This document shows positions 4,284 through 30,210 of a DNA stretch of 44,857 nt, piece by piece. The stretch lies in sequence record OR861626.1. One strand, given 5' to 3'. Every line of letters starts with the position of its first letter. The stretch's first letter is position 1. The notes under the pieces are model-generated. The model was not told the origin of the DNA and ran no database searches. It saw only the letters and a list, made by a program, of their open reading frames with translations. This DNA is from Escherichia phage phiA2-1. Made by a program: the position numbers and the translations under genes.

Positions 4284-4294
4284 ATGGAGGTTTT

Positions 4295-12809: not shown

Positions 12810-12853
12810 AATATACCTACCTGGTGAGTTGATTATTTGTTTATGGAGATTCA

Positions 12854-14804: not shown

Positions 14805-17800
14805 ATGGCACAAATGATCAAAACAAACATGAGGCTTTGTGATATGGCTGAAGAGATTAAGATTTATGGTGCCAAGGGTGGTAGCCAAAAGCAGCATCAA
14901 CCAGTGGAGCAGGAAGATAACCTAATTTCACTTAACAAGGTTAAGGTTCTTTTGGCGGTTGCTGACGGTGAGGTGGATCCTAACTTCTCATTGAAGGATT
15001 TATACCTTGCTGACGTTCCGGTACAAAATCAGGATGGTAGCTACAACTATGAAGGTGTTCGCGCTGAGTTCCGTGCTGGCACGCAGTATCAGGACTATAT
15101 CGCCGGGCTTGACGGTGCTAACTCAGAGATTCAGGCATCCAGAGAAATCAAGAACGATACCCCGTACATCATTGCAGTTAACAATACTCAGCTTTCAGCA
15201 ATTCGAGTTAAGCTATTCTGGCCTCGACTGGTTAAGCAAGAAAGCAATGGAGACCTGAACGGAACAACCTGCGAGTATGCAATTGACCTTTCTGTTAATG
15301 GTGGCGCTTACCAGGAATACACTCGCGGAGTTGCTAACGGAAAGACCACTACAGGTTACGACCGAAGCATTCGCGTAAACCTTCCGGCAGAATTTGATAG
15401 CGCGCTTGTTCGCATCCGTAAGATTACGCCGGATTCAACAAGTAGCACCCTGGTTAACGGTATGCAGATTACAACCTATCAGGAAGTAATTGACGCTAAA
15501 TTCCGCTATCCGCTTACGGCTCTGGTTTACGTTGAGTTTGGTTCTGACTTGTTCCCTAACGGCATCCCAACAATCTCAATCAAGAAGAGATGGAAGTTGA
15601 TTCAGGTTCCTACAAACTATAACCCTGAAACCAGAACTTATAGCGGCACATGGAATGGTCTATTCAAGATGGCATGGTCAAACAACCCAGCATGGGTTCT
15701 TTATGACCTAGTAACAAACCGCCGTTACGGACTTGACCAGCGAGAGCTGGGTGTAGAGATTGATAAGTGGGGCCTGTACGAAGCTGCACAATTCTGTGAC
15801 CAGATGGTTCCAGATGGCAAGGGTGGCTTAGAGCCGCGTTACCTTTGCGATATGGTTGTACAGAACAAGGTTGAGGCTTACACGCTAATTCGTGATATCT
15901 GTTCAATCTTTCGCGGCCTGACTTTCTATGACGGCGAAAAGATTGGCATCGTGGTTGATAAGCCTCGCAACCCATCTTACATCTTCACCAATGATAACGT
16001 TGTAAACGGATTGTTCAGTCGCACATTTGCCAGCGATAAAAGTCTTTACACCACGGCAAACGTTCAGTTTGATGATGTAGAGAACAACTATCAGCAGGAT
16101 GTTGAGCCAGTATTTGAGCTTGAGGCTACTCGCAGGTTCGGGTTTAATCCAGTCGACCTTACGGCAATTGGCTGCACTCGCAGAAGTGAAGCAAACAGAC
16201 GCGGCAGATGGCTCCTAAAAACCAACCTGAGAAGCGAAACTATCAGCTTCACTACCGGGTTGGAAGGCATGATTCCGATGATTGGCGAGGTTATTGCAGT
16301 TAATGATGCGGCATGGTCGAGCAACTATCAGTTGAACCTTTCCGGCCGCATTGAATCAGTGCAGGGGCTACAGGTTTTTACACCGTTTAAAGTTGACGCA
16401 GCGCCGGGTGACAGAATTCTTCTTAACAAGCCAGACGGAAGCCCGGAGGCAAGAACTATTGCCAGTGTTTCGGAAGACGGCAGAACAATCAACCTTAACA
16501 CTGCTTTCAGTTTTGTAGCTCAGCCAGACACTGTGTTCGCAATTGATAAGGATAACCTTGCGCTTCAGCAGTATGTTGTGACCGGGATTCAAAAGGCAGA
16601 TACTGACGGCTCTGATTCATTTCAGTACACGATTACTGCGGTGGAGTATGACCCTAACAAGTATGACGAGATTGACTACGGCGTTAATATTGTTGACCGT
16701 CCAACTTCAGTCGTAGAGCCTGATAGATTGTCGCCACCTGAGAATTTAACAGTGTCAAGCTACAGCAAGGTTGTTCAAGGATTATCAGTTGAGACGATGG
16801 TTATCGGGTGGGATAAAGCGCCATACGCTAAAACCTACAATGTTCAGTGGAGAAAAGAGAATGGCAACTGGATTAACGTACCAAGAACAGCTAGCACAGA
16901 GGTTGATATCGAAGGTATTTACGCAGGAATTTATGACGTTAGGGTTCGCAGCGTATCAGATACTGAAAACGTGTCTGCCTGGTCTGGTATTGTAACGGTA
17001 TCGCTAACTGGCAAGATTGGTCGCCCATCGGCACCTACGGTTATCACGGCGTCAACTGATGAAGTATTTGGTATCCGTGTTAAATGGGGATTCCCTGAAG
17101 GCTCTGGCGATACTGCTTACACTGAGCTTCAGCAGGTTCCAGATAATGGTGATGGTACTTACAATCCTGATAATGCAAGTTTGCTTACGTTACTTCCTTA
17201 TCCTGCCTACGAATACTGGCATACGCCAATTCAGCCAGGTAAGGTGATTTGGTATCGCGCAAGATTGATTGACAGAATCGGAAATACCTCTGATTGGTCT
17301 AATTTCGCAAGAGGCATGAGTACTGACGACGCAAACATTATCAATGATTTCATCAAGGTTGATATTGAAGGTTCAGAAGGATTCAAATACCTCGAGCAGA
17401 ATGCGATTCAAAAGAATCAGGACATTCAGAATCAAGCTGAGGCAATTATCGAGAACGCACTGGCTAATGATGGCGATGTTCGCAGAATGACAAAGGAGAA
17501 CGGCAAGCGTAAGGCTGAATATGTTCAGGCTGTGAATCTCATAGCCGATGAAACTCAGGCGCGCGTAGAGGCTCTAACGGCCCTTAAGGCGCAGATAGAT
17601 GATGAAGTTGTAGCATCGATTACAGAAGTTCAGACTGCATTAGCCACAGAGACAGAAGCAAGGACTACTGCAGACACGACTCTATCAGCAAGACTTGGTG
17701 AAAATGAGGCGGCTTTAAACCAGAAGCTGGACGCATTCTCTAATGCCACATCGACTGGTGTGCAGTACGGAATTAGTCTTGGCCTGAAATACAATGGACA

Positions 17801-18161
17801 GACTTATTCATCCGGTATGAGCATGGAGCTTGTCGGCACTGGTGACAATGTTCGTAGTCAATTCATTTTTGACGCAAACAGATTCGCTATCAGTAACGGC
17901 ATTGGTTACGGCTCCGGTCAGTGGCAACTCCCCTTCGTTGTCGAGAATGGAAACGTAATCATCAAGAGTGCAGTTATCGGCGATGGCTCAATCAGTAACG
18001 CGAAGATTGGTAACTTTATTCAGTCTAATGACTGGGGTACAAATTCAGGCTGGAGGCTAGATAAGGATGATGGATTGACGCTTAGGGGTTCCGATCGTGG
18101 CAAGATGAGAGTCCTGGACCGGAATGGAGTGGTTAGGGTAAAATTAGGATACTTGGGTTAA
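14805..18161 (+). CDS. Tail tip / host specificity protein (lambda J-like central tail fiber)
   Basis: 1118 aa; strong resemblance to lambda J, e.g. NYNPETRTYSGTWNG...AWVLYDL...RYG...DKWGLYEAAQFCDQMVPDGKGGLEPRY; ATG at 14844 is a plausible alternative start. Confidence 0.8.
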   Translation: MAQMIKTNMRLCDMAEEIKIYGAKGGSQKQHQPVEQEDNLISLNKVKVLLAVADGEVDPNFSLKDLYLADVPVQNQDGSYNYEGVRAEFRAGTQYQDYIAGLDGANSEIQASREIKNDTPYIIAVNNTQLSAIRVKLFWPRLVKQESNGDLNGTTCEYAIDLSVNGGAYQEYTRGVANGKTTTGYDRSIRVNLPAEFDSALVRIRKITPDSTSSTLVNGMQITTYQEVIDAKFRYPLTALVYVEFGSDLFPNGIPTISIKKRWKLIQVPTNYNPETRTYSGTWNGLFKMAWSNNPAWVLYDLVTNRRYGLDQRELGVEIDKWGLYEAAQFCDQMVPDGKGGLEPRYLCDMVVQNKVEAYTLIRDICSIFRGLTFYDGEKIGIVVDKPRNPSYIFTNDNVVNGLFSRTFASDKSLYTTANVQFDDVENNYQQDVEPVFELEATRRFGFNPVDLTAIGCTRRSEANRRGRWLLKTNLRSETISFTTGLEGMIPMIGEVIAVNDAAWSSNYQLNLSGRIESVQGLQVFTPFKVDAAPGDRILLNKPDGSPEARTIASVSEDGRTINLNTAFSFVAQPDTVFAIDKDNLALQQYVVTGIQKADTDGSDSFQYTITAVEYDPNKYDEIDYGVNIVDRPTSVVEPDRLSPPENLTVSSYSKVVQGLSVETMVIGWDKAPYAKTYNVQWRKENGNWINVPRTASTEVDIEGIYAGIYDVRVRSVSDTENVSAWSGIVTVSLTGKIGRPSAPTVITASTDEVFGIRVKWGFPEGSGDTAYTELQQVPDNGDGTYNPDNASLLTLLPYPAYEYWHTPIQPGKVIWYRARLIDRIGNTSDWSNFARGMSTDDANIINDFIKVDIEGSEGFKYLEQNAIQKNQDIQNQAEAIIENALANDGDVRRMTKENGKRKAEYVQAVNLIADETQARVEALTALKAQIDDEVVASITEVQTALATETEARTTADTTLSARLGENEAALNQKLDAFSNATSTGVQYGISLGLKYNGQTYSSGMSMELVGTGDNVRSQFIFDANRFAISNGIGYGSGQWQLPFVVENGNVIIKSAVIGDGSISNAKIGNFIQSNDWGTNSGWRLDKDDGLTLRGSDRGKMRVLDRNGVVRVKLGYLG

Positions 18162-18202
18162 TAAATTATTGGCGGGTAAATCCCGCCTAAGGTTTTATTT
18201 GT

Positions 18203-18574
18203 ATGGCTGGTTTGTATGGTTGGGAGATGTACGATTCTGCGGGGCGGCTTGTAGCTGACAATAGCAGCATAATGAGCAGGAGGCTATTCACTTATAGCGT
18301 GCCACTGATAAGGGCTTTATCTGCAAACATACCATGGGAAGTCTCATTTAATGTTAACTTCTCAAATGGAACGCCTTATGCGCATTGCAATACCAGAACA
18401 GGGGTGGTGGTCCCTGCATCTACTAACTGGTATCCAGTATCACCTGATATAATAATATCTGGAAATGCAGTTACACTCAGGTATACAAACAGGCATGTTT
18501 CCTATCCGGACGATCTTGGGTACATACTTGCAGTTGGTGGTGTTGATGTTCACTTAGGAGTTTATAATAAATGA
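18203..18574 (+). CDS. Hypothetical protein (tail-associated by position)
   Basis: 123-aa ORF downstream of J; stop overlaps next start. Confidence 0.3.
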   Translation: MAGLYGWEMYDSAGRLVADNSSIMSRRLFTYSVPLIRALSANIPWEVSFNVNFSNGTPYAHCNTRTGVVVPASTNWYPVSPDIIISGNAVTLRYTNRHVSYPDDLGYILAVGGVDVHLGVYNK

Positions 18575-19368
18575 GTGATTATGGTGTTGAACTAATAAAT
18601 GACTATGGTTTAAAGGTTGCTGACGCAGAGGATGTAAATTACGTACTAAGAAGTTCTGGTACATTTAATGATTCAAATTTCTACTCATATGCAAACTCCA
18701 CATCTGCAATTAGCCTCATGACCACAGGAATGAATTCGCCTCTTCTATTTCTAAAGATGAACGAAAGTAGGTCAAGGATAAGCCAGAAGCCTGGAGTTAA
18801 CAAAATATCACCTGATTTTGTTAACCCAAATACCACAATAACAAAGACAAGCATAGACCTATTCAAGTGGTGGAACATACCGCTAGGAACTGTAGAGTAT
18901 TACATATTTGACAAGTGGATCCCGCCAGAAAGAAGTGATTATGGAATGCAGATATTTAATGAATCTGGTTCTATAATCTTTGATTCTGGCTGGTACTTCC
19001 TCAAACTTAGGGATGTGCTATGGCTTGATCCAAGTTATCCAAACCATTCAGATCAGGAAGGTGGTAGTAACTGGACTAACGTCGGGAATATTGTCAACTC
19101 CGCGAACGTATCAAACTCAGCATTATCAATGCCTGTTGGTAGGGGGTGGGTTGAAACATCATTGCAGGGTGGGTACTACTATAATGAATGCTGTCACCTT
19201 GACTCATCCGGTAATCTATTTATATCCATAATACCTACAGGTATATACCTTGATGTTTCACCAACTGGCGGCTGGGTTGGCAATATGAGGACGCAAGTTA
19301 TGGTTTGCGACACCTCGAGGCTGCCTCTTAATTACAATCCAGTTGAGATAAGAAAGGAAAACAAATAA
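18571..19368 (+). CDS. Hypothetical protein, Asn/Ser/Gly/Trp/Tyr-rich (tail-associated by position)
   Basis: 265-aa ORF, last gene of the plus-strand late block. Confidence 0.3.
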   Translation: MSDYGVELINDYGLKVADAEDVNYVLRSSGTFNDSNFYSYANSTSAISLMTTGMNSPLLFLKMNESRSRISQKPGVNKISPDFVNPNTTITKTSIDLFKWWNIPLGTVEYYIFDKWIPPERSDYGMQIFNESGSIIFDSGWYFLKLRDVLWLDPSYPNHSDQEGGSNWTNVGNIVNSANVSNSALSMPVGRGWVETSLQGGYYYNECCHLDSSGNLFISIIPTGIYLDVSPTGGWVGNMRTQVMVCDTSRLPLNYNPVEIRKENK

Positions 19369-19689: not shown

Positions 19690-19755
19690 TGTGTTTCGTT
19701 TCGATGGAAAGATAATACCGCATCCTTGCGATAAGTGTTTAGCAATTAGTGCTAT
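19690..19755 (-). promoter_or_regulatory. Promoter-like cassette (minus orientation)
   Basis: Minus strand reads AATAGCACTAATTGCTAAA, 22 nt, TATTAT, then CATCGAAACGAAACACAC leader before the small peptide gene. Confidence 0.5.
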
Positions 19756-20166: not shown

Positions 20167-20832
20167 CTACTTATCTTTAAGTAGCAACTTGATATCAATT
20201 CCTAGATTATTCTCAATCAATCCAGTCAGTGCACCTACCTTTTCCTTAAGTGCGAAGCACTGTGTTTCATACTTGAATCTCAACTCCATCTCATCAGAGC
20301 GACTTGACCAGCACTGCCGAGCCTCGCACGCTAGCTCATCAATCTTCTTGTCAAGTTCCTTATCTGACAGGGTGATTTCAGTAATTCGCTGCTCAGCTAC
20401 GATTCTCTGGATCAAGTGAGCATTCTGCGCTTGCAGGTATCCATTCTTCATTCTTTCCTCTTTAAGTTCATCAATGCTTACCATCTGACTGATTACTTCC
20501 GCTTGCTTGTTGATGGTGCTTTGCATTTCTTTAAGCTTAGCAAGCACTGCGCGACGAACGAACTTTGATTCTCTCATCCCAATCAAAAGCATCTGTTCCA
20601 TATTGAGCACTGGTGAGTTGATTGACTTTCTATAACCTCCTCTACCCTCACTCTTGATTACGAAACTTTCGTAGTCAAACTCAAACCCTTCAAGCTCATC
20701 CTCTATTCTCTCAACAAAGTCATTGTGTCGAACATTGGACTCCCCAGCGATCAACCTCGCTGGGTTGATAACTTCATTTAAAAACTGATAACTATTCATT
20801 TTTACGTCTTCATTAAGTAATGCTAAGTTCAT
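20167..20832 (-). CDS. Rha-family-like regulatory protein with coiled-coil C-terminal half (putative)
   Basis: Track ORF to 20856; likely start ATG 20832; SNVRHNDFVERIEDEL and MLLIGMRESKFVRRAVLAKL resemble Rha motifs. Confidence 0.4.
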   Translation of the reverse strand: MNLALLNEDVKMNSYQFLNEVINPARLIAGESNVRHNDFVERIEDELEGFEFDYESFVIKSEGRGGYRKSINSPVLNMEQMLLIGMRESKFVRRAVLAKLKEMQSTINKQAEVISQMVSIDELKEERMKNGYLQAQNAHLIQRIVAEQRITEITLSDKELDKKIDELACEARQCWSSRSDEMELRFKYETQCFALKEKVGALTGLIENNLGIDIKLLLKDK

Positions 20833-20856
20833 TTTCGTCTCTCTTTTGTTTTTCAT

Positions 20857-21467
20857 TCCTAAGATTTGAGGAGTTAACTAAGTTCTTTTCCTCAATTTGA
20901 GGAGGAGTTGACAGCACCATTGCCGCCACGCGCCTAAATATACCTAAAGATAGCCAGTTGTCTTTAGCAAATCGTGCTATTTATCGACAATTTCACCATA
21001 AATCACAGTTACACGTAACCGATGTAACTCGATGTATACAATCTCATCCGCGGGAAATGATATACGCGCTGTTACGCCAATTTACGCATTGGTTACATTA
21101 AAATATCTATATATATCAACCTTTTACTCTTATTATTATTATTATATATATTACTGTGTATATCATGTAACTACTTCTATAGAGTGTTCCGGTTATAATT
21201 TTAATATCATGTGGATTTATACAGTATTGCGCGGCAGCTATACCAATGCACCCTCAGCGAGAAACGGCATACACGATATACACGATGTTTACATTGAGCT
21301 ATGGCTGGCTTGAGATGCCAAAAAGCGTAACTAGTGCCAATGCCTACACGAAATTACAAAGATTCACGCGTAAACTTAAATCAACGATTTGCAAAACCAA
21401 TTGGACTGGTTACGGTGCTGAATATATAGTTACCTCATCGAAAGCAATCAACCAGAGAGATATATAA
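20857..21467. promoter_or_regulatory. Large AT-rich divergent control region with (TTA)n and (TA)n tracts
   Basis: 611 nt without a credible ORF; (TTA)5 near 21127..21145; TATATATAT; palindrome CCTCAAATTGAGG; separates minus-strand block from plus-strand early block. Confidence 0.4.
20920..20981 (-). promoter_or_regulatory. Promoter-like cassette (minus orientation) for the 20832 gene
   Basis: Minus strand AATAGCACGATTTGCTAAAG, 22 nt, TATATT. Confidence 0.45.
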
Positions 21468-21665: not shown

Positions 21666-22637
21666 ATGACATTTAAAGTTTACACGAACGACGAACTAAC
21701 CAACGAGGCTTATCACGAAGAGCAAGACCATATCTCTGGCTCATCACTGGCTGAGATTCTCGCAACCTCACCAGCTAAATGGAAATTCAAGCAGCGCAAT
21801 AACTCCAGCGCAGCACTTAAGTTTGGCACTCTGAGTCATACGATGATGCTAGAGCGCGAGGTTTTCGATTCAACCTACATGCGAGCCACTGACTTTGACG
21901 AAGTTGAAGGATTGATCACAAGCCAAACAGCTTTATCAGCAGCACTTAAGAAAGTTGGTGTTTCTGGTACGTCAGGAGAGGGCTATAACGAGCTCGTGGA
22001 GATGATGTATAAGTCTGGCGAGGATTGGCCTGTTAAATGGCTAATTGAGCAGCAGGAGAGCGCTGAGGCATTGATTAGTGGCAAGGAGTTGGTTACTGCG
22101 AAAGATTACGACAAGGTAATCTCAATGCGCGAGGTTCTGACCAATATTCCAGCTTACGATTCGGTCATTAATTCACCAACAGCACAGAAAGAGTTATCCA
22201 TCTTTGGTGAGATTTTAGGTTGTGGCGTAAAGGTTAGGCTTGATCACGTTGATGTTGTTGATGGCGTTGTCTACATTACTGACTATAAAACGACGGCAGA
22301 CGCAAGCCCTCGATGGTTTGGTAAGTCGGCTTATGACCATGGATACCTTTGCAAGATGGCACTTCAACGCGATTTGTTTGTGAATGCATTCAGCGAGAAG
22401 CGCAAGGTTGTGGTTCGCCTCCTGGCGCAGGAGAAAACTGAGCCTTACTTACCTATGTGCTACACGCTTACAGATGAGCAGCTTCGCATTGGGCGCATTC
22501 AGTATCTTGAAGCACTGGCTACATACAAACAGTGCAAGGAACTTGATGTGTGGCCTGGTTACAGTAATGGGATTACAGAGCAAGATTTAATGATTCCTGA
22601 GTGGGTAAGTAAAAAGTATCAAGAATTGCTGAAATAG
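21666..22637 (+). CDS. PD-(D/E)XK-family exonuclease (recombination exonuclease, putative)
   Basis: RLDHVDVVDGVVYITDYKT contains a D...D/E-x-K nuclease signature; adjacent to Erf-family gene. Confidence 0.55.
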   Translation: MTFKVYTNDELTNEAYHEEQDHISGSSLAEILATSPAKWKFKQRNNSSAALKFGTLSHTMMLEREVFDSTYMRATDFDEVEGLITSQTALSAALKKVGVSGTSGEGYNELVEMMYKSGEDWPVKWLIEQQESAEALISGKELVTAKDYDKVISMREVLTNIPAYDSVINSPTAQKELSIFGEILGCGVKVRLDHVDVVDGVVYITDYKTTADASPRWFGKSAYDHGYLCKMALQRDLFVNAFSEKRKVVVRLLAQEKTEPYLPMCYTLTDEQLRIGRIQYLEALATYKQCKELDVWPGYSNGITEQDLMIPEWVSKKYQELLK

Positions 22638-22700
22638 CACTAATTGCTAAAGAAAAAGTTAACTGGTGGGGTATCATTACCTCACCAAAACGAAAGAGAG
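22634..22700 (+). promoter_or_regulatory. Promoter-like cassette
   Basis: ATAGCACTAATTGCTAAAG, 22 nt, TATCAT, then CCAAAACGAAAGAGAG leader; box overlaps upstream stop TAG. Confidence 0.5.
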
Positions 22701-22707: not shown

Positions 22708-23358
22708 ATGAAGACTTCAGAGCAAAACAAGCAAGTATTGAAGGCGTTATTTGAGGCTAAATCAAAGTTTGCCAAGGCTGAAAAATCAAAGCAGAACTCG
22801 CACCTAAAGAACAAGTACGCCACTTTAGATGATGTTTTAGCGGCGGTTGAGCCGGGCCTGGCGGATAGCGGATTGGTAATGTTTCAGTCAATGGTTGATG
22901 ATGATGTTAGCTCTCGTATTAAGGTTGAGACTACCGTATACCATGCCGAGTCTGGAGAATGGGTTAGCTTCCTGACAATCGTCCCAATCAGCAAGCAAGA
23001 TGCTCAAGGTTATGGCTCATCACTCACATACGCTCGCCGTTACGCAATTACAGCGGCATTAGGATTAAGCCAAGCAGATGATGATGGTCAGCTGGCAGTT
23101 AAAGGAATTAACTCATTTAAGAAGGATTTGGCTAAGTGCAATACGCTTGATGACCTTCGTGATGTTTACAAAGAAGCGAAACAGTCACTTGATTCAGCAG
23201 GCTGGCTAGTGCTCGAGCCTCACATCATCGAGAGGAAAGCTGAGATTCAGGCTAATGCAACTAACGGTTTTAATCCTGCAAAACCTAAGCAAGTTGCACA
23301 AAAGAATGTTCAAGAAGAAAAAGTTGAAGTACAATCTCAAGAAATCGATACATTCTAA
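22708..23358 (+). CDS. erf: Erf-family single-strand annealing protein
   Basis: 216 aa; GSSLTYARRYAITAALG resembles the Erf signature; sits between exonuclease and SSB. Confidence 0.7.
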   Translation: MKTSEQNKQVLKALFEAKSKFAKAEKSKQNSHLKNKYATLDDVLAAVEPGLADSGLVMFQSMVDDDVSSRIKVETTVYHAESGEWVSFLTIVPISKQDAQGYGSSLTYARRYAITAALGLSQADDDGQLAVKGINSFKKDLAKCNTLDDLRDVYKEAKQSLDSAGWLVLEPHIIERKAEIQANATNGFNPAKPKQVAQKNVQEEKVEVQSQEIDTF

Positions 23359-23398
23359 TTTAACGGGGCTGCGGCCCCAACATTAAGAGAGAAAGAAA

Positions 23399-23830
23399 AT
23401 GAGTCACGTAATCACTGGTGTTATCCGTCGCGCTCCGTTCACTAAAGAAGGTCAGAATGCCAATGGCACCTGGAAGATGTACGCAGTTGATTTAAACGAG
23501 CGATACAAGGATAAAGATGGACAGGCGCATTATAGCAACTATCGCGCCGTGTTCTTCGCCAAAGAATCAATGCTTGCTTGGTACGATGAGGCTTTCCAGG
23601 AGGGGAAGGTTGTTAGCGTAAGTTGTGAAACATTGGCTGTAGACGTTCGTGATAAAGATGGTAAAACTTATGTAACAATCAACATGAACAACCCGCGACT
23701 TGAGTTTAGTCAGCGTGGTGAAGGTGTCCAGCAACAACAGCAACAGCAAAAACCACAACAGCAACAGCAACAACAGCAGCAGCGTCAACCTCAACAGCAG
23801 AAGAACTTCGAGGATGATATCCCCTTCTGA
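23399..23830 (+). CDS. ssb: Single-stranded DNA-binding protein with Gln-rich linker
   Basis: 143 aa; OB-fold-like N-terminus; poly-Q linker; acidic C-terminal tail ending DDIPF. Confidence 0.75.
   Translation: MSHVITGVIRRAPFTKEGQNANGTWKMYAVDLNERYKDKDGQAHYSNYRAVFFAKESMLAWYDEAFQEGKVVSVSCETLAVDVRDKDGKTYVTINMNNPRLEFSQRGEGVQQQQQQQKPQQQQQQQQQRQPQQQKNFEDDIPF
23720..23800 (+). repeat. (CAR)n trinucleotide repeat encoding the poly-Q linker of SSB
   Basis: CAGCAACAACAGCAACAGCAA...CAACAGCAGCAGCGTCAACCTCAACAGCAG. Confidence 0.6.
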
Positions 23831-23839
23831 TAAAAGACA

Positions 23840-23864
23840 AAGCCCCTTTCGGGGGCTTTTTTAT
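23840..23864. terminator. Bidirectional terminator between ssb (+) and tail fiber gene (-)
   Basis: AAGCCCC-TTTC-GGGGGCTT plus T-run. Confidence 0.55.
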
Positions 23865-24949
23865 GGCATATTTACTCGAATTGAAACGAAAGAGTCAGAA
23901 GGAATATCTATAGGATCGCCGTTACTAAAACCTTCAACTTTATTTCTTGCAAAGGACGGGGATGAATCGTGAGTTCGATGGTAAGTTTTTACTACTATTG
24001 ATCCATTAGACTCAACCTCATAATCTAGCCATATTCTTGGCTGCTTGTTTGCATCTAAAGGTATCTCAAAGCCACCATTAACACCACCCCAGGAGGCATC
24101 CGAATTTAGACCAAGCACACCTGATACCCTATAAACACCAGTGGAAACTCTCTCCACTGTAGCTCCCTTTGATTGCTCGTTTGTTTCAAAACCACCATCA
24201 CTGAAGACTTTAATTATAGGAGAAGCCTTTTTAAGGAAACCGTTAGAGTCTACGGTTACGTTTTGTGAGTGGTAAAGTTCCATGAACCCAAGGCCGTTAT
24301 TATAAGTTGAGTTAGCTATATAGCATCTCCTTTCCGCATAAGAAACGGCAAGCTGAGCCCACTCTCTAGCAGTTGGTCCAGGCATATCCATAAATACAAC
24401 ATAATCTAGGTAGTATAAGTTGGTTGGACTAATAGGTTCATATCCATACGTCCAGGTTGTTTTGGGCTTGTCGGTTCGCATTATCCTTGATCCAAAAACT
24501 AGTTGAACTTGCCCAGGTTCATAGCCATGATCAATGACAGCAGAAGTTCCAAGCCCGAGGTTGTTACGCGCTTCAGGTGCTGTACTAGCTCCTGTTCCTC
24601 CGTTCTCTAATTTTACATTCCCATCATCACCACCGCTCACATAATTATTTGACTGATAAAATCTAAGCGTCTCGGCTACGTCCTGTGCCAAACCCTGAAC
24701 TGTAATACCATCATGAAGAAGAATGGCGTAACCAGTTCCAGCAGCAACGGTTTCAGAATTAGGGTTGTAAACATTAATCTGCGTGTCGCTGATGATTTCA
24801 GAGATAGTGTAAATCTTCACTGGTTCAGTCTTGAAAACAATAGTGGCGCCAACACGAATCAGCGTAAGCGGAGCCATCCAGGTAGTCCCAACACCAGTTA
24901 CAGTGCCGTTAGCTGCCAGGCTGGCTGTTCCAGCGTCATAAATTGCCAT
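23861..24949 (-). CDS. Tail fiber protein (putative receptor-binding fiber)
   Basis: Track ORF to 24979; likely start ATG 24949 after GGAG (MAIYDAGTASLAANGTVTG...); GGTGASTAPEARNNLGLG fiber-type motif. Confidence 0.5.
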   Translation of the reverse strand: MAIYDAGTASLAANGTVTGVGTTWMAPLTLIRVGATIVFKTEPVKIYTISEIISDTQINVYNPNSETVAAGTGYAILLHDGITVQGLAQDVAETLRFYQSNNYVSGGDDGNVKLENGGTGASTAPEARNNLGLGTSAVIDHGYEPGQVQLVFGSRIMRTDKPKTTWTYGYEPISPTNLYYLDYVVFMDMPGPTAREWAQLAVSYAERRCYIANSTYNNGLGFMELYHSQNVTVDSNGFLKKASPIIKVFSDGGFETNEQSKGATVERVSTGVYRVSGVLGLNSDASWGGVNGGFEIPLDANKQPRIWLDYEVESNGSIVVKTYHRTHDSSPSFARNKVEGFSNGDPIDIPSDSFVSIRVNMP

Positions 24950-25012
24950 TGTAAGGTCTCCATTTGTAAAATAGCACAATTTGCTAAAACTAATTCTACC
25001 ATCTTTAATGCA

Positions 25013-25036
25013 ATAAAAAACCTCCCGAAGGAGGTT
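25013..25036 (-). terminator. Rho-independent terminator (minus strand) after the primase-like gene
   Basis: ACCTCC-CGAA-GGAGGT hairpin with A-run on plus strand (U-run on minus). Confidence 0.45.
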
Positions 25037-25958
25037 AGTTTATTAAGTCGTTGGCTTTGTACACTTTCTTGCGTATGCCTGTTTTAAATGACTTACCGTC
25101 ATTGGGAATCACCACATCAACATTGCGATCGTCAGCAACAGCAAGGATATCGATATCATAATCATGGCAAGCAATTCTGAACTTCCTTGACTTGTCGCGG
25201 TGTATAACCATCTCCATATTGTAACAGGAGAAAGCAACAAACACCTCGCGACCCCCAGTAGCAAGGTGAACACGTACGCCATCAATATAATTGTCAACAA
25301 CATAAGTATAACTATTGTCCTGCCTAGAACCAATGACAGCAACAGAATCACGAGTATAATCACCAGCAAGGAACTTAACATTTGAATCCTCATCAATAAA
25401 CATTACGTTACAGAACTCATCACCAAGCCCATCCTCATAAACCATGGAGCAAGGCACGGCATGAATCATTGAACCATCTTTAGCTATACCAACATCAAAA
25501 CCAGATTCAGAGTATATACCCTCATATGTCGTGAGTGGACTTGAGTCAACTCGCTGAGTTCTCCCCATGACCTCCAAAACTTTTTCATGGTCTACTTGAG
25601 CGCCCATCTTATAACGATGAGTTCTGGATGCTTGCTTGTTTGCTTTAACTATAACCTCAATTGGTGTTAAGTTCAGCCAGTCACCAAGCAAATTTACTGA
25701 ATCGGCGAAGGACGATCCAGTGCACTTCATGACCCATCCTATACCGGAGTCACTTCCGCATTTCGAACAAACTGCCGCGCCATTTCCTTTTTCACTGCCT
25801 ATTTCGTCGGTAAATCTGAATCTGTCAGTGCCAAAGCAGTATGGGCATGGTCCGTGCTTCTTACTTAGGTGTCTATCATTCCAACCAAGTTCCTTTGCAT
25901 AAAATGATTTCCACAATCCGGCCATCTTAGGTATAACTTCATTCTTATCGTAATTCAT
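25035..25958 (-). CDS. DNA primase-like protein (zinc-ribbon plus TOPRIM-like region)
   Basis: CPYC...CSKCG zinc-binding motif; acidic AVADDRNVD segment; located in replication block. Confidence 0.45.
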   Translation of the reverse strand: MNYDKNEVIPKMAGLWKSFYAKELGWNDRHLSKKHGPCPYCFGTDRFRFTDEIGSEKGNGAAVCSKCGSDSGIGWVMKCTGSSFADSVNLLGDWLNLTPIEVIVKANKQASRTHRYKMGAQVDHEKVLEVMGRTQRVDSSPLTTYEGIYSESGFDVGIAKDGSMIHAVPCSMVYEDGLGDEFCNVMFIDEDSNVKFLAGDYTRDSVAVIGSRQDNSYTYVVDNYIDGVRVHLATGGREVFVAFSCYNMEMVIHRDKSRKFRIACHDYDIDILAVADDRNVDVVIPNDGKSFKTGIRKKVYKANDLIN

Positions 25959-26434
25959 TTGCTTAACCCGTGATTTTCGTGAAAGTTGTATTTTCTCTCT
26001 GCTTCAATTCTTACTTTATACGCCTGCTCTGGAGTATCGAAGTTCCCAAGGTGTAGCTGCTTGCCGTCAACCTTGATGTGAGCCTTAAATTTTCCGTGAT
26101 TTAGCTTTACCACTCCACAATAACCAGTTGTTGATAAAACGCTAAGATTGCAATTTCTTGAGTTACCTTGATTTGTTGTTACTCTTAGGTTTTCTATTCT
26201 GTTATCTAATTTGTTATGGTTTATATGATCAATGTAGTCGCCATTTTGAAGTTCTCCATTAAACATCTCCCACACAACTCTATGTACATAAGTCCTAAGG
26301 CCATTAACAGACACTTTGTAATAGCCAGATGTAGATAGTGAGTTGCACTCATCGCCAACCTTAACACGTCTTGCAGTGCTAATCTTCCAATGCAATTTGC
26401 CATCTACATAGTAAAAATAATCATGCCAGTTCAT
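25955..26434 (-). CDS. HNH homing endonuclease (HNH plus AP2-like region)
   Basis: Motifs HRVVWEMFNG, IDHINHN, NLRVT; third paralog of the same family. Confidence 0.7.
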   Translation of the reverse strand: MNWHDYFYYVDGKLHWKISTARRVKVGDECNSLSTSGYYKVSVNGLRTYVHRVVWEMFNGELQNGDYIDHINHNKLDNRIENLRVTTNQGNSRNCNLSVLSTTGYCGVVKLNHGKFKAHIKVDGKQLHLGNFDTPEQAYKVRIEAERKYNFHENHGLSK

Positions 26435-26486: not shown

Positions 26487-26960
26487 TTAATCTTTAGCTT
26501 TTCGTGCTGCCTCGTTAGCAATCTTATTCTTGCGCCATGGTCGACATGATGGCTTAGTTGCTAGTTCGGCTTCGGTAACTACGCGAAGCATATGGCGTTT
26601 CTTGCATCGAAGTGTTAGCGGCTTTCCATTCCCGTCGAATTGCAAGTCAGGTCGGCAGAATGTAGCTCGAAAACCTTCCTTATTTCGCTTGTACGCATTG
26701 TGAGCTTTCTGCGCACCTCGAGCTGAAATCATGCCGCGATCAAACCACTGCTCTACAGTCTGGTGAGATACATTTAACTGTTTTGCGATGTTCGCCTTTG
26801 TGCCGTAGAAATCAAGAACCATCTCCAGACGTGCCCTGAGGCCAGCCCTCACCTCATCCTTTAATACGTAGTAACCTGAAGGTCGTTTGCGCTGCTTCTT
26901 GTCTTGTGTGCGTACCGTTCCGTTATTACCGTTAATTGTTCTCTTGTCAATTTCACACAT
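26487..26960 (-). CDS. Putative HTH DNA-binding protein
   Basis: 157 aa, basic; HTH-like segment TKANIAKQLNVSHQTVEQWFDRG. Confidence 0.4.
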   Translation of the reverse strand: MCEIDKRTINGNNGTVRTQDKKQRKRPSGYYVLKDEVRAGLRARLEMVLDFYGTKANIAKQLNVSHQTVEQWFDRGMISARGAQKAHNAYKRNKEGFRATFCRPDLQFDGNGKPLTLRCKKRHMLRVVTEAELATKPSCRPWRKNKIANEAARKAKD

Positions 26961-26972
26961 CTCATTACCTCA

Positions 26973-27040
26973 ATAGCACTTTTTGTTAAACAATAGGTTC
27001 GATAATTGTTATTATACAGCAATGCAACGAACTAACAAAC
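26973..27040 (+). promoter_or_regulatory. Promoter-like cassette
   Basis: ATAGCACTTTTTGTTAAA, ~21-22 nt, TATTAT/ATTATA, upstream of helicase ATG 27057. Confidence 0.45.
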
Positions 27041-27056
27041 TGTCAGGATATTTAAA

Positions 27057-29051
27057 ATGCATCCAGTAGAGCGCTTAGTAGCCAACTTTGATCAAGAGAA
27101 GATTAAGCAGATTCAGAAGGATTATCAGTTTGGAAATATTACGCCGTATCCATTCCAGTGCGTGACATTCGACCAAATAGGTAAGCACATTGCTAAGTAC
27201 GAAGCGCCATTCATAGCAGACCTTTCTGTATCTGCTGGTAAGACAATCATTCTTGCCATGATTGGGAAACGCATGGAGCAGCTTGGCCTTCCTTATATGG
27301 TGCTATCTCGCCAGTCTGAGATTATCAGCCAGAACGCTGAAGAGCTTCGTAACTTCGGCATCCGTAATAGCGTATATTGCGCTGGCCTTAACGTTAAATC
27401 AGTTTACTACCCAACTATAGTGGCTAGTGAGGGAACGGCTGCCAACGGCTTGTTTAAGGGCCTTGGTGACTACGTTCCTGCTGTTATCGCGATAGATGAG
27501 GCGCACATGGTGGACCACATGGATATCGTAGAAGCTGAAGAGAACGAGGAAACATTCGAGCAGATGAGCACAAAGAAAGGTGAGATGGTTTTCAAGGATG
27601 GAGTGAATACCGGATTGCTTGGCACTGGTCGTGCGAAGTACACGCTAATCATTACCGAGATGAAGCGACGCTGCAAAGAGAAGTATGGTCGCGAGCTACG
27701 TATTTTCGGTTTGACTGGTAGCCCGTACCGTAACAACGACCACATTGTAGTTAGTAACCCAAATGTTCGTGGATTCTGGCGTAAGACGGTAATGCAGGTT
27801 CCAACCAGTTACCTTGTTGAATTTGGCTTCGTGGTTCCTACTGTTTACGGCGAGGTTGGCGATTTGGGTTATGACCTTAGTGAGTTCGCGCCTGATGGAA
27901 GTGATGGCGTTAAGGATTTCAGCAAAAAAGAAATGGACGCAATGGCTGAAAAGATTCATGAAAACCAGACCATGACGCAGAAAATTATGAAGTTCGTTAT
28001 CAAGCTACTTGAAACGCGTAACGCCGCATTGGTAACTTGCGCTAGCAAAATGCACTGTAGCGAAGCGGCAGCCGCGCTACCTGATGGCTATCCTTACGCG
28101 ATAATCACTGATTCTACTGGTGAGAAGAAAAGAAGGGAGATTCTCGATGAATGCAATAAAGGAAAGTACAAGATCATATTCCAGATTGGGTGCTTAACAA
28201 CAGGCGTGAACCAACCTTTGTGGGATACTAGTGTGATTCTTCGCAAGATTGGTAGCCTTACACTCATGATTCAGTTACTTGGTAGGGGGATGCGTAAGCT
28301 TAAAAAATGTCACGTTGAAGCTGGATTCCAGAAGGATGACCATGTGGTTCTTGACTTCGCTGGCGCTCTTGATGATATGGCTGAGATTTACTTTGACCCG
28401 ATTATTGAAGAGATTCAGAATGAGAAATTCAAATCATCACGCAATGGTGGAGATGAAGTAAGGATGTGTCCTCAATGTGGTTATGAGAATTCACCGTTCG
28501 CTCGACGTTGCAACAATAAGATAGATGGAGTTAGGTGTGATCACTTCTTTACTTTTGCATTATGTGAAGATATAAAGGATACGCAGACTGGAGTTATTAC
28601 CAAGAAGGGTTGTGGTGCTCGTAACGATATAGCAGCTAAGTGCTGTCGAGAATGCGGCGAGCAAATGAAGGACCCGAATGCCAACCTAACCGGTAAGATG
28701 TACCGCCGCGGAGATTACCTTCGTGTTTACGGATTTGAACTTGGACTTAGCAAGAACCAGTCAGGAATCGTAGTTAAGTACGATATCATGGCTCACACCG
28801 GTGAGCGCTTTAATGCATGGGAATTCTTCAATCCAGAGTCTGAACATAGGGTTTGCAGTGTTCTATGGAAGAACTTTTGCCTTGCTCATATAGAGAGTCG
28901 CGCTGAGGCCACAAGAATTGGCATACTTCGCAATGCGAGAATGATTATGACGAATGCCAGCAAGTTTCGAGCGCCAGTACAAGTTACACACAGAAAAAAC
29001 GGCAAGGGTAAAGATGTTATAGCTCATAAAATATTTGGAGAATTGCAATGA
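27057..29051 (+). CDS. ATP-dependent DNA helicase (SF2, DEAH-type) with C-terminal zinc-ribbon motifs
   Basis: Walker A SAGKT, motif II AIDEAHM, QLLGRGMR; C-terminal CPQCG and CCRECG. Confidence 0.7.
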   Translation: MHPVERLVANFDQEKIKQIQKDYQFGNITPYPFQCVTFDQIGKHIAKYEAPFIADLSVSAGKTIILAMIGKRMEQLGLPYMVLSRQSEIISQNAEELRNFGIRNSVYCAGLNVKSVYYPTIVASEGTAANGLFKGLGDYVPAVIAIDEAHMVDHMDIVEAEENEETFEQMSTKKGEMVFKDGVNTGLLGTGRAKYTLIITEMKRRCKEKYGRELRIFGLTGSPYRNNDHIVVSNPNVRGFWRKTVMQVPTSYLVEFGFVVPTVYGEVGDLGYDLSEFAPDGSDGVKDFSKKEMDAMAEKIHENQTMTQKIMKFVIKLLETRNAALVTCASKMHCSEAAAALPDGYPYAIITDSTGEKKRREILDECNKGKYKIIFQIGCLTTGVNQPLWDTSVILRKIGSLTLMIQLLGRGMRKLKKCHVEAGFQKDDHVVLDFAGALDDMAEIYFDPIIEEIQNEKFKSSRNGGDEVRMCPQCGYENSPFARRCNNKIDGVRCDHFFTFALCEDIKDTQTGVITKKGCGARNDIAAKCCRECGEQMKDPNANLTGKMYRRGDYLRVYGFELGLSKNQSGIVVKYDIMAHTGERFNAWEFFNPESEHRVCSVLWKNFCLAHIESRAEATRIGILRNARMIMTNASKFRAPVQVTHRKNGKGKDVIAHKIFGELQ

Positions 29052-29467
29052 AAATTACAGATAAGGTTGATTACCTTGAGTTCTACGGAGGCGCAGTTGA
29101 GTCATGCCCAAAGGAAGACGACGAACAAATCTTTTGCTCTGACTGGGTTAAGTATAACTATCCGCAAGTTGTTTACTGGCACACAGTTAATGAATCAATG
29201 AAGAGTATTGGTCAGGCAAGGAAAGACCAGGCTAAAGGACTCCTTAAAGGAGTATCAGACTGCTTATTCTTAATACCTGAGTCATTGCGAGGTAGTTATC
29301 CATTTGGAGCCATAGAATTGAAGAGGGCAGGTAAAACACAAGCTAGTCCGGTAAGTGACGAGCAGAAGTCATTCCTAAAAAGTGTAAGAGAATCAGGAGG
29401 TTTCGCCGCTGTAGCCTATGGCAGGGAGGGTTTTCTTGCTGCATTCGAAGAGATGATCAGGAAATAG
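29048..29467 (+). CDS. VRR-NUC-like nuclease (PD-(D/E)XK fold, putative)
   Basis: 139 aa; GVSDCLFLIPE...GAIELKR segment; overlaps helicase stop. Confidence 0.5.
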   Translation: MKITDKVDYLEFYGGAVESCPKEDDEQIFCSDWVKYNYPQVVYWHTVNESMKSIGQARKDQAKGLLKGVSDCLFLIPESLRGSYPFGAIELKRAGKTQASPVSDEQKSFLKSVRESGGFAAVAYGREGFLAAFEEMIRK

Positions 29468-29529
29468 CACGAATCGCTAAAGACGAATCGGTGAGTTGGT
29501 GTATTATCAACTCATCGAAACGAAACACA
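29464..29529 (+). promoter_or_regulatory. Promoter-like cassette
   Basis: ATAGCACGAATCGCTAAAG, 22 nt, TATTAT, ATCGAAACGAAACACAC leader identical to the 19690 copy. Confidence 0.5.
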
Positions 29530-29961: not shown

Positions 29962-30149
29962 TTGGAATCTGCGTGAAAACAAATGGAAGGTTTACACTTC
30001 TTGAGGATTACGAAGTTAACTTTAATTCAGGTGGCGAAATAATAGTAAAAGGAGACGATGAATTACATTGGTTCCTTAGTTATCAAGGTGATGGCTACTA
30101 CGTGTGTATAGATTGTCACGGAAAAGAGGTAAGTTTCTTGGTTGAATAG
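29958..30149 (+). CDS. Hypothetical small protein (member of a three-copy paralog family)
   Basis: 63 aa; shares C-V...G.G.Y...DG.Y pattern with ORFs at 32292 and 32492. Confidence 0.4.
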   Translation: MIGICVKTNGRFTLLEDYEVNFNSGGEIIVKGDDELHWFLSYQGDGYYVCIDCHGKEVSFLVE

Positions 30150-30210
30150 CACTTTTTGTTAAAAAATAAATCCATGGATGGATTATATTAAAAACATCAA
30201 CAACGCAGAG
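30146..30210 (+). promoter_or_regulatory. Promoter-like cassette
   Basis: ATAGCACTTTTTGTTAAAA, 22 nt, TATATT; box overlaps upstream stop TAG. Confidence 0.45.

What the first reader, a model, noticed from the sequence alone, without database searches (positions are those of the whole stretch)
23861..24979. Tail fiber gene located on the minus strand away from the tail module
A fiber-like protein (N-terminal MAIYDAGTASLAANGTVTG, GGTGASTAPEARNNLGLG motif) is encoded on the minus strand between ssb and the primase-like gene, about 6 kb from the J-like gene. It is preceded by an extended -10 (TGcTATTTT) and a cassette-like box at 24971. A separately regulated receptor-binding gene is a natural hotspot for host-range swapping.
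Basis: partly seen in the sequence, partly recalled or inferred. Interest (0 to 1): 0.35.

Follow-up and report, generated by a model that had tools for sequence, protein, structure and literature searches.

The report
Lateral tail fibre gene of T1-like phage
This is the ordinary side (lateral) tail fibre gene that all T1-like phages keep between their ssb and primase genes, here as an unusually short, recombinant version; its position is a known family hallmark, not a surprise.

Summary
A 362-aa protein is encoded on the minus strand at 23861-24949; the true start is ATG 24949, not TTG 24979. It lies between ssb and primase, 5.7 kb from the J-like gene.

The window is Escherichia phage phiA2-1, an Rtp-like member of Drexlerviridae. 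There the protein is annotated only as 'hypothetical'.

It is the family's lateral tail fibre (LTF).
- Residues 1-100 are the conserved virion-anchor domain shared with T1, Rtp, TLS and Webervirus depolymerases.
- Residues 230-362 are Pfam PF25670 (E 6e-59).
- The exo-erf-ssb-(fibre)-(primase) order is identical in T1, Rtp, Rao1, ETEP102, AugustePiccard, MM01 and SA32RD, and was described by Maffei et al. 2021.
- The allele is a three-way DNA mosaic, with a crossover inside the GGTGA..ARxNLGLG repeat.

The 'cassette-like box' is real. It is one copy of the known 21-nt Drexlerviridae repeat (aaATAGCACnnnTTGnTAAAA), whose function is unknown.

A better conserved extended -10 (TGnTAnAAT, 25001-24993) sits 5 nt upstream of the box. 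This -10/box composite precedes only the fibre gene in related phages.

Verdict: a new member of a known kind, of low interest. The fibre-specific inverted box is a modest lead.

The parts
23861..24949 (-). Lateral tail fibre (LTF) coding sequence, 362 aa plus stop. The true start is ATG 24949.
   Evidence: ORF. The start is fixed by alignment with homologues that all begin MAIYD. PF25670, PHROG 1591. 100% identical to a 'hypothetical protein' of Escherichia phage phiA2-1.
24650..24949 (-). N-terminal anchor domain (aa 1-100): a beta-barrel plus helix that attaches the fibre to the virion.
   Evidence: 90-92% identical to many Drexlerviridae fibres and 52-60% identical to Klebsiella Webervirus tail fibres/spikes. 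Matches residues 1-103 of the depolymerases 7LZJ/7VYV, which PMC10581125 calls the 'conserved N-terminal anchor domain'. AF2 pLDDT is 81-95 for residues 1-80, falling to 52-59 for 81-100. BFVD matches to the Rtp, TLS and JK06 fibres at rmsd 2-3 A.
24548..24601 (-). Single copy of the GGTGAxxAxxARxNLGLG shaft repeat (aa 117-134). It holds the recombination junction.
   Evidence: Homologues carry 1-3 tandem copies (A1) and SU10 gp12 carries two. Similarity to L012 ends, and similarity to L011 begins, inside this motif.
24263..24547 (-). Variable middle domain (aa 135-229). It is the least conserved part and a candidate specificity region.
   Evidence: Shared with P0002-P0004 and with lambdoid prophage fibres, but replaced by an unrelated module in P0005/P0007/P0008. 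Low pLDDT in the monomer model.
23864..24262 (-). C-terminal PF25670 (Phage_tail_C_2) domain (aa 230-362).
   Evidence: E 5.9e-59, profile positions 1-132 of 133. 31 invariant columns among 54 homologues. Also found at the C-terminus of SU10 gp12, a T1 tail fibre, phi80 gp25, KarlBarth bas17_0031 and the APK116 tailspike. pLDDT mostly 76-94, with a dip to 56 at residues 281-290. No significant PDB fold match.
24957..24961 (-). Ribosome-binding site GGAGA, 7 nt before the ATG.
   Evidence: Read directly from the sequence. An AGGAG/GGAG-type site is aligned in the relatives.
24969..24989 (+). One copy of the 21-nt Drexlerviridae intergenic repeat (AAATAGCACAATTTGCTAAAA; palindromic core 24972-24987). 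It is oriented against the fibre gene.
   Evidence: Motif enrichment of 23 matches against 1.5 expected. It matches the TLS consensus aaATAGCACnnnTTGnTAAAA (PMC11447400). It is nearly invariant at this site in 8 aligned phages plus T1 and Rtp. It is the only well-matched copy in the window without a -10 hexamer 22 nt downstream.
24993..25001 (-). Candidate extended -10 promoter TGgTAGAAT for the fibre gene, 5 nt upstream of the box.
   Evidence: TGnTAnAAT is kept in 7 of the 8 aligned phages, with ETEP102 reading TGcTATACT, and in T1 and Rtp. In IMG/VR the exact composite TGnTAnAAT-N5-TTAGCA-N5-TGCTA occurs once per Drexlerviridae-like contig (about 43-52 kb); in 12 of 13 it is followed 22-25 nt later by an MAIY.. 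fibre ORF, and the 13th locus is cut off. Promoter function is inferred, not shown.
25019..25036 (-). Intrinsic terminator after primase, which isolates the fibre gene from the primase transcript.
   Evidence: The hairpin and T-run are conserved in the relatives, and a terminator is annotated at the same place in ETEP102, MM01 and SA32RD.
23839..23859 (.). Bidirectional terminator between the convergent fibre and ssb genes.
   Evidence: Equivalent terminators are annotated in T1, ETEP102, MM01 and SA32RD.

Best explanation
The gene encodes the lateral (side) tail fibre of a T1/Rtp-like siphovirus.

How it most likely works. This model is inferred from homologues, except where marked as shown.
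- The protein trimerises.
- Its N-terminal 100 residues dock it to the tail tip region of the virion.
- A minimal shaft follows, with one GGTGA..ARxNLGLG repeat and no coiled coil.
- The distal part is a variable middle domain plus the conserved PF25670 C-terminal domain. It makes the first, reversible contact with a surface glycan (LPS or O-antigen).
- Irreversible binding is left to the J-associated central fibre module at 14805-19368.

Evolution (shown).
- The gene sits at the fixed Drexlerviridae locus between ssb and primase.
- The conserved 5' 300 nt and the flanking replication genes provide homology arms, so everything 3' of codon ~100 is exchanged between phages.
- This allele is a three-way mosaic with a junction inside the repeat motif.

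Expression (anatomy shown, function inferred).
- The gene is an autonomous unit: terminator, extended -10 (TGgTAGAAT), an inverted copy of the family's 21-nt box overlapping the predicted transcription start, ribosome-binding site, coding sequence, bidirectional terminator.
- At about 12 other places in this genome the same box sits 22 nt upstream of a -10 hexamer, so its centre is near -42. That is the geometry of a class II activator site.
- At the fibre gene the box lies downstream of the -10. Whatever binds it would be expected to damp or delay fibre transcription rather than activate it.
For: Identity.
- PF25670 E 5.9e-59 and PHROG 1591 'tail fiber' E 4.8e-114.
- N-terminal residues 1-100 are 75-92% identical to Escherichia Drexlerviridae fibres.
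- PDB sequence hits: SU10 gp12 C-terminus (E 5.5e-70) and the N-terminal anchor of Webervirus depolymerases (E ~5e-28).
- BFVD fold matches to the Rtp, TLS, JK06 and T1 fibres.

Locus.
- Synteny is identical in ETEP102, Rao1, AugustePiccard, MM01, SA32RD, Rtp and T1 and in two metagenomic contigs.
- Maffei 2021 describes exactly this pattern.

Virion and host-range role in relatives.
- The authors of the TLS paper link TLS Gp55, encoded next to the primase gene (Gp56), to a 78 kDa virion protein.
- Two residue changes in the putative tail fibre gp28 of the Drexlerviridae phages CRES7/9 change the O-serotype range. Orthology of gp28 to this locus is inferred from their relative CS01, whose tail fibre shares this N-terminus.

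Mosaic.

Regulation.
- Terminators.
- Conserved extended -10 and box with a rigid 5-6 nt spacing.
- The composite is found only in front of the fibre gene in IMG/VR Drexlerviridae-like contigs.
- 12 of 16 window boxes and 17 of 21 Rtp boxes have a -10 hexamer at exactly 22 nt.
- In Rtp, gene starts lie 54-72 nt downstream of the boxes.
Against: - There is no direct evidence here for virion incorporation, trimerisation or receptor binding.
- The PF25670 domain is unusually conserved for a receptor-binding tip. In SU10 it ends the proximal half-fibre, so it may be structural rather than the adhesin.
- The protein is the shortest in the family (362 aa against 439-960), so function could be reduced.
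- The promoter and operator roles are sequence inference only. The simple sigma-70 scan reports no minus-strand promoter there, because there is no -35.
- What binds the box is unknown, which PMC11447400 lists as an open question.
- In T1, inverted boxes also precede the ST40 and ST47 genes, so the inverted layout is not fibre-exclusive across the whole family.
Confidence: 0.82

Rival explanations
1. The protein is only a proximal adaptor. Its PF25670 C-terminal domain would be a docking platform for a separate distal receptor-binding protein, as in Kuravirus SU10, where gp12 (proximal) carries gp13 (distal).
For: - The C-terminus of SU10 gp12, the 786-residue long-tail-fibre proximal protein, is the best PDB sequence match (PMC9509320).
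- In SkaterBoy the PF25670-ending fibre gene is followed directly by a second fibre gene.
- PF25670 is highly conserved across phages of different hosts, which is unusual for an adhesin tip.
Against: - There is no second fibre gene at the locus. Only 30 nt, holding a terminator, separate the fibre stop from ssb.
- No other fibre-like gene was found among the ten other window ORFs scanned.
- MM01, SA32RD and Phc also have single-gene loci ending in PF25670.
- The same domain ends a stand-alone fibre (phi80 gp25) and a capsule-depolymerase tailspike (APK116).
Confidence: 0.1
2. The gene is a shortened, functionally decayed fibre. It would be comparable to the defective stf of laboratory lambda, retained but dispensable.
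For: - It is the shortest allele seen: 362 aa against 439-960 aa in relatives.
- It lacks the coiled-coil shaft present in its closest C-terminal relatives P0002/P0003.
- Maffei 2021 regard lateral fibres as non-essential on rough K-12 hosts.
Against: - The reading frame is intact from the conserved start to the conserved ..VNMP end.
- All 31 invariant PF25670 columns are kept.
- Independent phages carry similarly short alleles (379-412 aa: P0007, P0008, P0013, P0019).
- The promoter/box composite and the ribosome-binding site are intact.
Confidence: 0.07
3. On regulation: the fibre gene is transcribed from the reader's TGcTATTTT inside the box, or simply by read-through from the primase transcript. 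In either case the box would have no regulatory role at this site.
For: - TGcTATTTT (24976-24968) is a formal extended -10 match 18 nt before the ATG.
- The primase terminator could be leaky.
- No experiment defines any Drexlerviridae promoter (PMC11447400).
Against: - After the invariant GTGCTA, the bases that would form the rest of the -10 vary between phages (TATTTT, TAAACA, TATCAA, TATTAA), including the critical last T.
- In T1 the ribosome-binding site starts 5 nt after that hexamer.
- At the regulator gene the ribosome-binding site overlaps that hexamer.
- The upstream TGnTAnAAT is kept with fixed 5-6 nt spacing to the box in every phage examined, with ETEP102 reading TATACT.
Confidence: 0.15

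Closest known systems
Drexlerviridae lateral tail fibre (T1 ST26/gp26, Rtp rtp50, TLS Gp55, BASEL 'lateral tail fiber protein' such as bas01_0038)
   Same: - The same N-terminal ~100-aa anchor domain.
- The same locus and strand between ssb and primase.
- The same terminator, extended -10, box and ribosome-binding-site layout upstream.
- The same pattern of a conserved 5' end and an unrelated remainder (PMC8594841).
   Different: - Much shorter: 362 aa against 498-960 aa.
- Its distal part is PF25670 rather than the beta-helix (Rtp) or the Peptidase_S74/T5-like tip (TLS).
- Some T1 records do carry a PF25670-ending fibre.
Kuravirus SU10 gp12, the long tail fibre proximal protein (PDB 7Z47 and related entries)
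   Same: GGTGA..ARxNLGLG repeats followed by a C-terminal PF25670 domain, matching residues 224-362 at E 3e-65.
   Different: - A different N-terminal anchor, which binds the podovirus adaptor.
- 786 aa long.
- It is followed by a distal fibre protein, gp13.
- Only residues 1-90 were built, so the shared domain has no experimental structure.
Webervirus (KP36-like) capsule depolymerases Depo32 / DpK2 (PDB 7VYV, 7VZ3, 7LZJ)
   Same: Homologous N-terminal anchor domain, residues 1-104 against 1-103 (PMC10581125).
   Different: The remainder is a beta-helix depolymerase, and no enzymatic domain is detectable here. The anchor domain was invisible in the cryo-EM maps.
Short side tail fibres of lambdoid phages and prophages (phi80 gp25, mEp234, HK446; E. 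coli, Enterobacter and Salmonella 'phage tail protein' of 419-446 aa)
   Same: Full-length collinear similarity: 34-42% identity over 94-99% of the protein, with the same three-part layout and no downstream chaperone gene.
   Different: They are encoded after J/cor in the tail module on the same strand. They carry a 20-30 aa C-terminal extension, and their N-terminal domain is diverged.
21-nt intergenic direct repeat of T1-like phages (TLS 'DR' elements, consensus aaATAGCACnnnTTGnTAAAA)
   Same: The box at 24969-24989 fits the consensus. The window has about 14 copies and Rtp about 19.
   Different: - Typical copies point in the direction of transcription. In Rtp they lie 54-72 nt before the start codon, and most have a -10 hexamer 22 nt downstream.
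- The fibre-locus copy points against both flanking genes.
- It has no -10 at that distance.
- It lies 22 nt before the fibre ATG, just after an extended -10.

Membership tests
Drexlerviridae lateral tail fibre | N-terminal ~100-residue anchor domain homologous to that of the T1, Rtp and TLS fibres | tested here: met
   74-92% identity to the Rtp, FP, Sd1 and JK06 fibres and 52-56% to the TLS and Klebsiella ones. HMMER E ~5e-28 to the Depo32/DpK2 N-termini. Confident AF2 domain.
Drexlerviridae lateral tail fibre | Encoded between ssb and primase, on the primase strand, convergent with exo-erf-ssb | tested here: met
   for the window. The same order is seen in seven annotated phages and two contigs.
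Drexlerviridae lateral tail fibre | Only the 5' end is conserved between phages; the rest is variable or mosaic | tested here: met
   Megablast hits stop at about nt 24666. Sliding identity is and the junction.
Drexlerviridae lateral tail fibre | Component of the virion | not testable with these tools
   Indirect only: the authors of the TLS paper link TLS Gp55 to a 78 kDa structural protein.
Drexlerviridae lateral tail fibre | Binds a surface glycan (O-antigen or LPS) as primary receptor and modulates host range | not testable with these tools
   Proposed but 'never directly demonstrated' for the family (PMC8594841). Shown genetically for CRES7/9 gp28.
Pfam PF25670 Phage_tail_C_2 | Score above the gathering threshold with full-length domain coverage | tested here: met
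   198.3 bits against a cut-off of 27, covering profile positions 1-132 of 133.
Two-component (proximal + distal) long tail fibre, SU10 type | A second, distal fibre gene adjacent to the PF25670-ending gene | tested here: not met
   A 30-nt gap holding a terminator lies before ssb. By contrast, SkaterBoy has Bas90_0009.
T1-like 21-nt intergenic repeat | Sequence fits aaATAGCACnnnTTGnTAAAA | tested here: met
   AAATAGCACAATTTGCTAAAA at 24969-24989, plus strand.
T1-like 21-nt intergenic repeat | Oriented in the direction of transcription, about 55-76 nt before a start codon, with a -10 hexamer 22 nt downstream | tested here: not met
   It points against the fibre and primase genes. The hexamer at +22 is TGCAAT (GGCATA in Rtp) and is followed by a terminator.
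Sigma-70 extended -10 promoter | TGnTATAAT-like element upstream of the gene, conserved, with a mapped transcription start | tested here: inconclusive
   The sequence is conserved in every phage examined, but there are no transcript data.

The most novel reading that the evidence does not exclude
The fibre gene may be wired the opposite way from the rest of the genome.
- The family-wide 21-nt box sits at about -42 of most phage promoters, the position of an activator site.
- At the fibre gene it is inverted and placed over the transcription start of a dedicated extended -10 promoter.
- One box-binding factor could therefore switch most transcription units on while holding the lateral fibre down or delaying it. 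A candidate is the conserved HTH protein encoded at 26487-26960, the Rtp52/T1 gp23 homologue.

This would give a concrete, testable function to the repeat that the TLS authors list as an open question.
Probability: 0.2. Interest if true: 0.45.

Novelty: new member of a known kind. Interest (0 to 1): 0.2.

Why it matters
Practically, the result re-annotates a 'hypothetical protein' of phage phiA2-1 as its lateral tail fibre. It also shows where the exchangeable module begins: codon ~100, with a junction in the GGTGA..ARxNLGLG repeat. That is useful for engineering the host range of T1-like phages.

Conceptually it adds little, because the locus and its mosaicism are already documented.

The one lead of wider interest is regulatory. 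The fibre gene carries a family-conserved, fibre-specific composite of an extended -10 and an inverted copy of the unexplained 21-nt Drexlerviridae repeat. That repeat is otherwise rigidly spaced 22 nt from -10 hexamers. This makes the repeat's function experimentally approachable.

Tried and rejected
- **Foldseek against the PDB:** no match at E<=0.001. Neither shared domain has a solved structure: the Depo32 anchor is invisible in the maps and only SU10 gp12 residues 1-90 were built.
- **NCBIfam:** no family for the fibre.
- **Rfam on 23300-25500:** nothing.
- **Antisense and overlapping ORFs** (24713-25087 +, 23700-23972 +, 25109-25396 -): no PHROG match.
- **Literature:** nothing found on 'phiA2-1' or on the NLGLG motif. 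A search for Drexlerviridae transcript maps was uninformative.
- **PF25670 as an N-terminal docking domain in Friunavirus tailspikes:** rejected. In APK116 the match is at the C-terminus of the 861-aa tailspike.
- **The box as a sigma-54 promoter (TGGCAC-N5-TTGC):** rejected. The spacing is 2 nt too short, the GG is AG, and TATAAT-like hexamers follow at 22 nt.
- **TTGCTA as a -35 hexamer:** rejected because the spacer is 22 nt.
- **The box as an RNA hairpin:** a 5-bp stem, invariant arms and no covariation, and in most copies it lies upstream of the -10, so this was not pursued.
- **The other IMG/VR matches to the composite pattern:** most are near-identical environmental contigs, and the five non-Drexlerviridae matches inspected appeared to lie in unrelated coding sequence. 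They are irrelevant.
- **Regulator protein against the PDB:** only a marginal Cro hit, E 0.42.
Full report
**What is there**

The finding's ORF is real. Its listed start, TTG 24979, is only the first in-frame start after a stop. All homologues begin at MAIYD.., so the gene starts at ATG 24949 and ends at 23861 on the minus strand (362 aa). A GGAGA ribosome-binding site lies 7 nt upstream.

The neighbours are as described:
- ssb (23399-23830, +; PHROG 44) is convergent downstream.
- A zinc-ribbon primase (25035-25958, -) is upstream.
- The J-like gene (14805-18161) lies 5.7 kb away.

**Where the window comes from**

The protein is 100% identical to a 'hypothetical protein' of Escherichia phage phiA2-1, found on a contig of 44,857 bp, which is the window length. 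The nearest phage in the collection is Rao1 (89.6% identity over 81% of 24 kb), followed by TR3, CY1, Rtp and the BASEL phages AugustePiccard and JulesPiccard. The window is therefore an Rtp-like member of Drexlerviridae.

**Identity of the protein**

- Pfam gives PF25670 (Phage_tail_C_2) for residues 230-362, E 5.9e-59.
- PHROGs gives 'tail fiber' families for both ends, with PHROG 1591 at E 4.8e-114.
- tblastn finds 1119 phage records. Residues 1-100 are 75-92% identical to the fibres of many Escherichia Drexlerviridae and 51-60% identical to Klebsiella Webervirus tail fibres and spikes.
- Residues 225-362 match Kuravirus, Dhillonvirus, lambdoid and Acinetobacter phage fibres.

Against the PDB by sequence:
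- The N-terminus matches residues 1-103 of the Klebsiella depolymerases 7VYV, 7VZ3 and 7LZJ. The Depo32 paper calls this the 'conserved N-terminal anchor domain' of KP36-like viruses, and it was invisible in their map.
- The C-terminus matches the end of the 786-residue SU10 'putative tail fiber'. The SU10 paper identifies this as gp12, the long-tail-fibre proximal protein, of which only residues 1-90 were built.

The AlphaFold monomer model is confident for most of residues 1-100 and 241-362 and poor in between. Foldseek finds no significant PDB fold. In BFVD it matches the Rtp, TLS, JK06 and KLPN1 fibres through the N-domain and a T1 tail fibre (47% identity) through the C-domain.

**The position is a family hallmark**

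The order exonuclease - Erf recombinase - ssb - (fibre, opposite strand) - (primase) - regulator - helicase is identical in several annotated phages:
- ETEP102, annotated 'putative lateral tail fiber'.
- Rao1.
- AugustePiccard, annotated 'lateral tail fiber protein'.
- MM01 and SA32RD.
- Rtp rtp50. Its note reads 'sequence similarity to gp26 of phage T1 limited to N-terminal region'.
- T1 ST26.

The same order holds in two metagenomic contigs.

Maffei et al. 2021 describe the same thing: conserved, syntenic recombination and primase/helicase flanks, with only the far 5' end of the fibre gene similar among genomes.

In TLS, Gp55 is encoded next to the primase gene (Gp56), and the authors link it to a 78 kDa structural protein. 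In the Drexlerviridae phages CRES7 and CRES9, two residue changes in the putative tail fibre gp28 change the O-serotype range. Their relative CS01 has a tail fibre with this N-terminus.

**Architecture and mosaicism**

The alignment shows five parts:
1. An anchor domain (residues 1-100).
2. A short linker.
3. One copy of a ~30-aa GGTGAxxAxxARxNLGLG repeat. Relatives have 1-3 copies or an alanine-rich coiled coil instead.
4. A variable middle domain (135-229).
5. The highly conserved PF25670 domain, with 31 invariant columns in 54 sequences.

At 362 aa this is the shortest allele seen.

At the DNA level:
- Identity to Rao1 is 80-93% through the first ~300 nt of the fibre gene. It falls to ~40% for the rest and recovers in ssb.
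- The linker is 90% identical to contig L012.
- The 3' 700 nt are 83-97% identical to contig L011.
- The L012-to-L011 switch lies inside the ARxNLGLG codons, near 24565.

No chaperone or second fibre gene follows: 30 nt, holding a terminator, separate the stop codon from ssb.

**Is PF25670 the adhesin?**

This is unresolved.
- It ends the proximal half-fibre in SU10 and SkaterBoy, where a distal fibre gene follows.
- It also ends single-gene fibres in MM01, SA32RD, Phc and phi80.
- It ends a small separate protein in KarlBarth.
- It ends a capsule depolymerase tailspike in APK116.

Its conservation suggests a structural, folding or conserved-ligand role. The variable middle domain is the more likely specificity determinant. 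This last point is inference.

**Regulation**

The gene is bracketed by intrinsic terminators at 25036-25019 and 23859-23839.

Eight phages from at least three subfamilies were aligned across the primase-fibre spacer. Two conserved elements stand out:
- TGnTAnAAT, which reads TGgTAGAAT at 25001-24993 in the window.
- Five nucleotides later, the near-invariant palindrome TTAGCA-N5-TGCTA (24987-24972).

T1 and Rtp have the same layout, with a spacing of 6 and 5 nt respectively. The bases after GTGCTA vary between phages, and in T1 the ribosome-binding site begins 5 nt after that hexamer. It is therefore an unlikely promoter.

**The repeated box**

It gives 23 matches in the window against 1.5 expected, corresponding to about 14 well-matched sites. 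It is the 21-nt repeat aaATAGCACnnnTTGnTAAAA reported for TLS, T1, Rtp and Rogue1. Those authors list its function as an open question.

New here is the geometry:
- 12 of 16 boxes in the window and 17 of 21 in Rtp have a -10-like hexamer exactly 22 nt after TTGCTA.
- In Rtp, gene starts lie 54-72 nt downstream of the boxes.
- A CATCGAAACGAAA-like leader often follows the -10 hexamer.
- The box is therefore centred near -42, the geometry of a class II activator site. That reading is inference.

The fibre-locus copy is the exception in the window, Rtp and T1:
- It points against both flanking genes.
- It lacks the -10 hexamer at 22 nt.
- It runs into a terminator.
- It overlaps the predicted start of the fibre transcript.

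**Is the composite specific to the fibre gene?**

The exact composite TGnTAnAAT-N5-TTAGCA-N5-TGCTA was scanned across IMG/VR. It occurs once per Drexlerviridae-like contig (about 43-52 kb). In 12 of 13 it is followed 22-25 nt later by an MAIY.. fibre ORF, and the 13th locus is truncated. The remaining matches come from other, mostly near-identical environmental contigs, and the five inspected appeared to lie in coding sequence.

A conserved HTH protein (26487-26960; PHROG 2856; Rtp52/T1 gp23 homologue) has a box 13 nt before its own start codon, shared with the divergent helicase promoter. It is a candidate binder. This is speculation.

T1 also has inverted boxes before ST40 and ST47, so the inverted layout is not exclusive to the fibre gene across the family.

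**Verdict**

The feature is the well-known lateral tail fibre locus of T1-like phages, present here as a short, recombinant, previously unnamed allele. Novelty: a new member of a known kind. Interest is low. The fibre-specific -10/inverted-box composite is a modest, testable lead.

Noticed in passing
window 6589-6604, 10599-10614, 19739-19754, 20964-20979, 22635-22650, 26974-26989, 29465-29480, 30147-30162, 32057-32072, 35868-35883, 36459-36474, 37505-37520, 40078-40093, 40649-40664: These are copies of the 21-nt Drexlerviridae repeat (ATAGCACnnnTTGCTAAAA). Each is co-oriented with the downstream gene. Twelve of these 14 copies have a TATAAT-like hexamer exactly 22 nt downstream; at 26974 and 37505 the best hexamer is offset by a nucleotide or two. 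Many have a CATCGAAACGAAA leader. They look like the phage's general promoters, with the box centred near -42. The function of the repeat is an open question in PMC11447400.
   Followed up: partly
window 25955-26434 (-) and the adjacent primase 5' end, about 25660-25958: An HNH homing-endonuclease gene (PHROG 99) sits directly upstream of primase. The first ~300 nt of primase are about 100% identical to AugustePiccard and to metagenomic contig L011, while the rest of the gene is only 55-85% identical. This is consistent with recent homing and co-conversion of the flank.
   Followed up: partly
window 14275-14763 (+): A second HNH endonuclease of the same PHROG (99) is inserted between the tail-assembly I-like gene and the J-like gene.
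   Followed up: no
window 12312-12854 (-): A Rha/anti-repressor-like regulator gene (PHROG 518, E 2e-57) lies on the opposite strand inside the tail gene cluster, between the L-like and K-like minor tail genes. It looks like an inserted moron.
   Followed up: no
window 20167-20856 (-): An anti-repressor-like protein (PHROG 8235, E 6e-83) with its own box-type promoter (box at 20964-20979). This is unexpected in a virulent T1-like phage.
   Followed up: no
window 23399-23830 (+): The ssb gene ends in a long glutamine-rich tract (QQQQQQKPQQQQQQQQQRQPQQQ) before the usual acidic ..DDIPF tip. The low-complexity DNA also creates spurious antisense ORFs (23567-23794, 23706-23840).
   Followed up: no
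L015 (T1, NC_005833) 5192-5335 and 3096-5282: In the T1 reference record the N-terminal anchor of the lateral fibre (MALYRRGTASMDADG..) is annotated as a separate 47-aa ORF, ST25, overlapping ST26. This is probably a frameshift or an annotation artefact in the record.
   Followed up: no
window 26960-27057: This is the divergent regulator/helicase control region. A single box (26974-26989) lies 13 nt before the start codon of the HTH regulator and at the usual distance upstream of the helicase gene. The layout suggests autoregulation coupled to helicase activation.
   Followed up: partly
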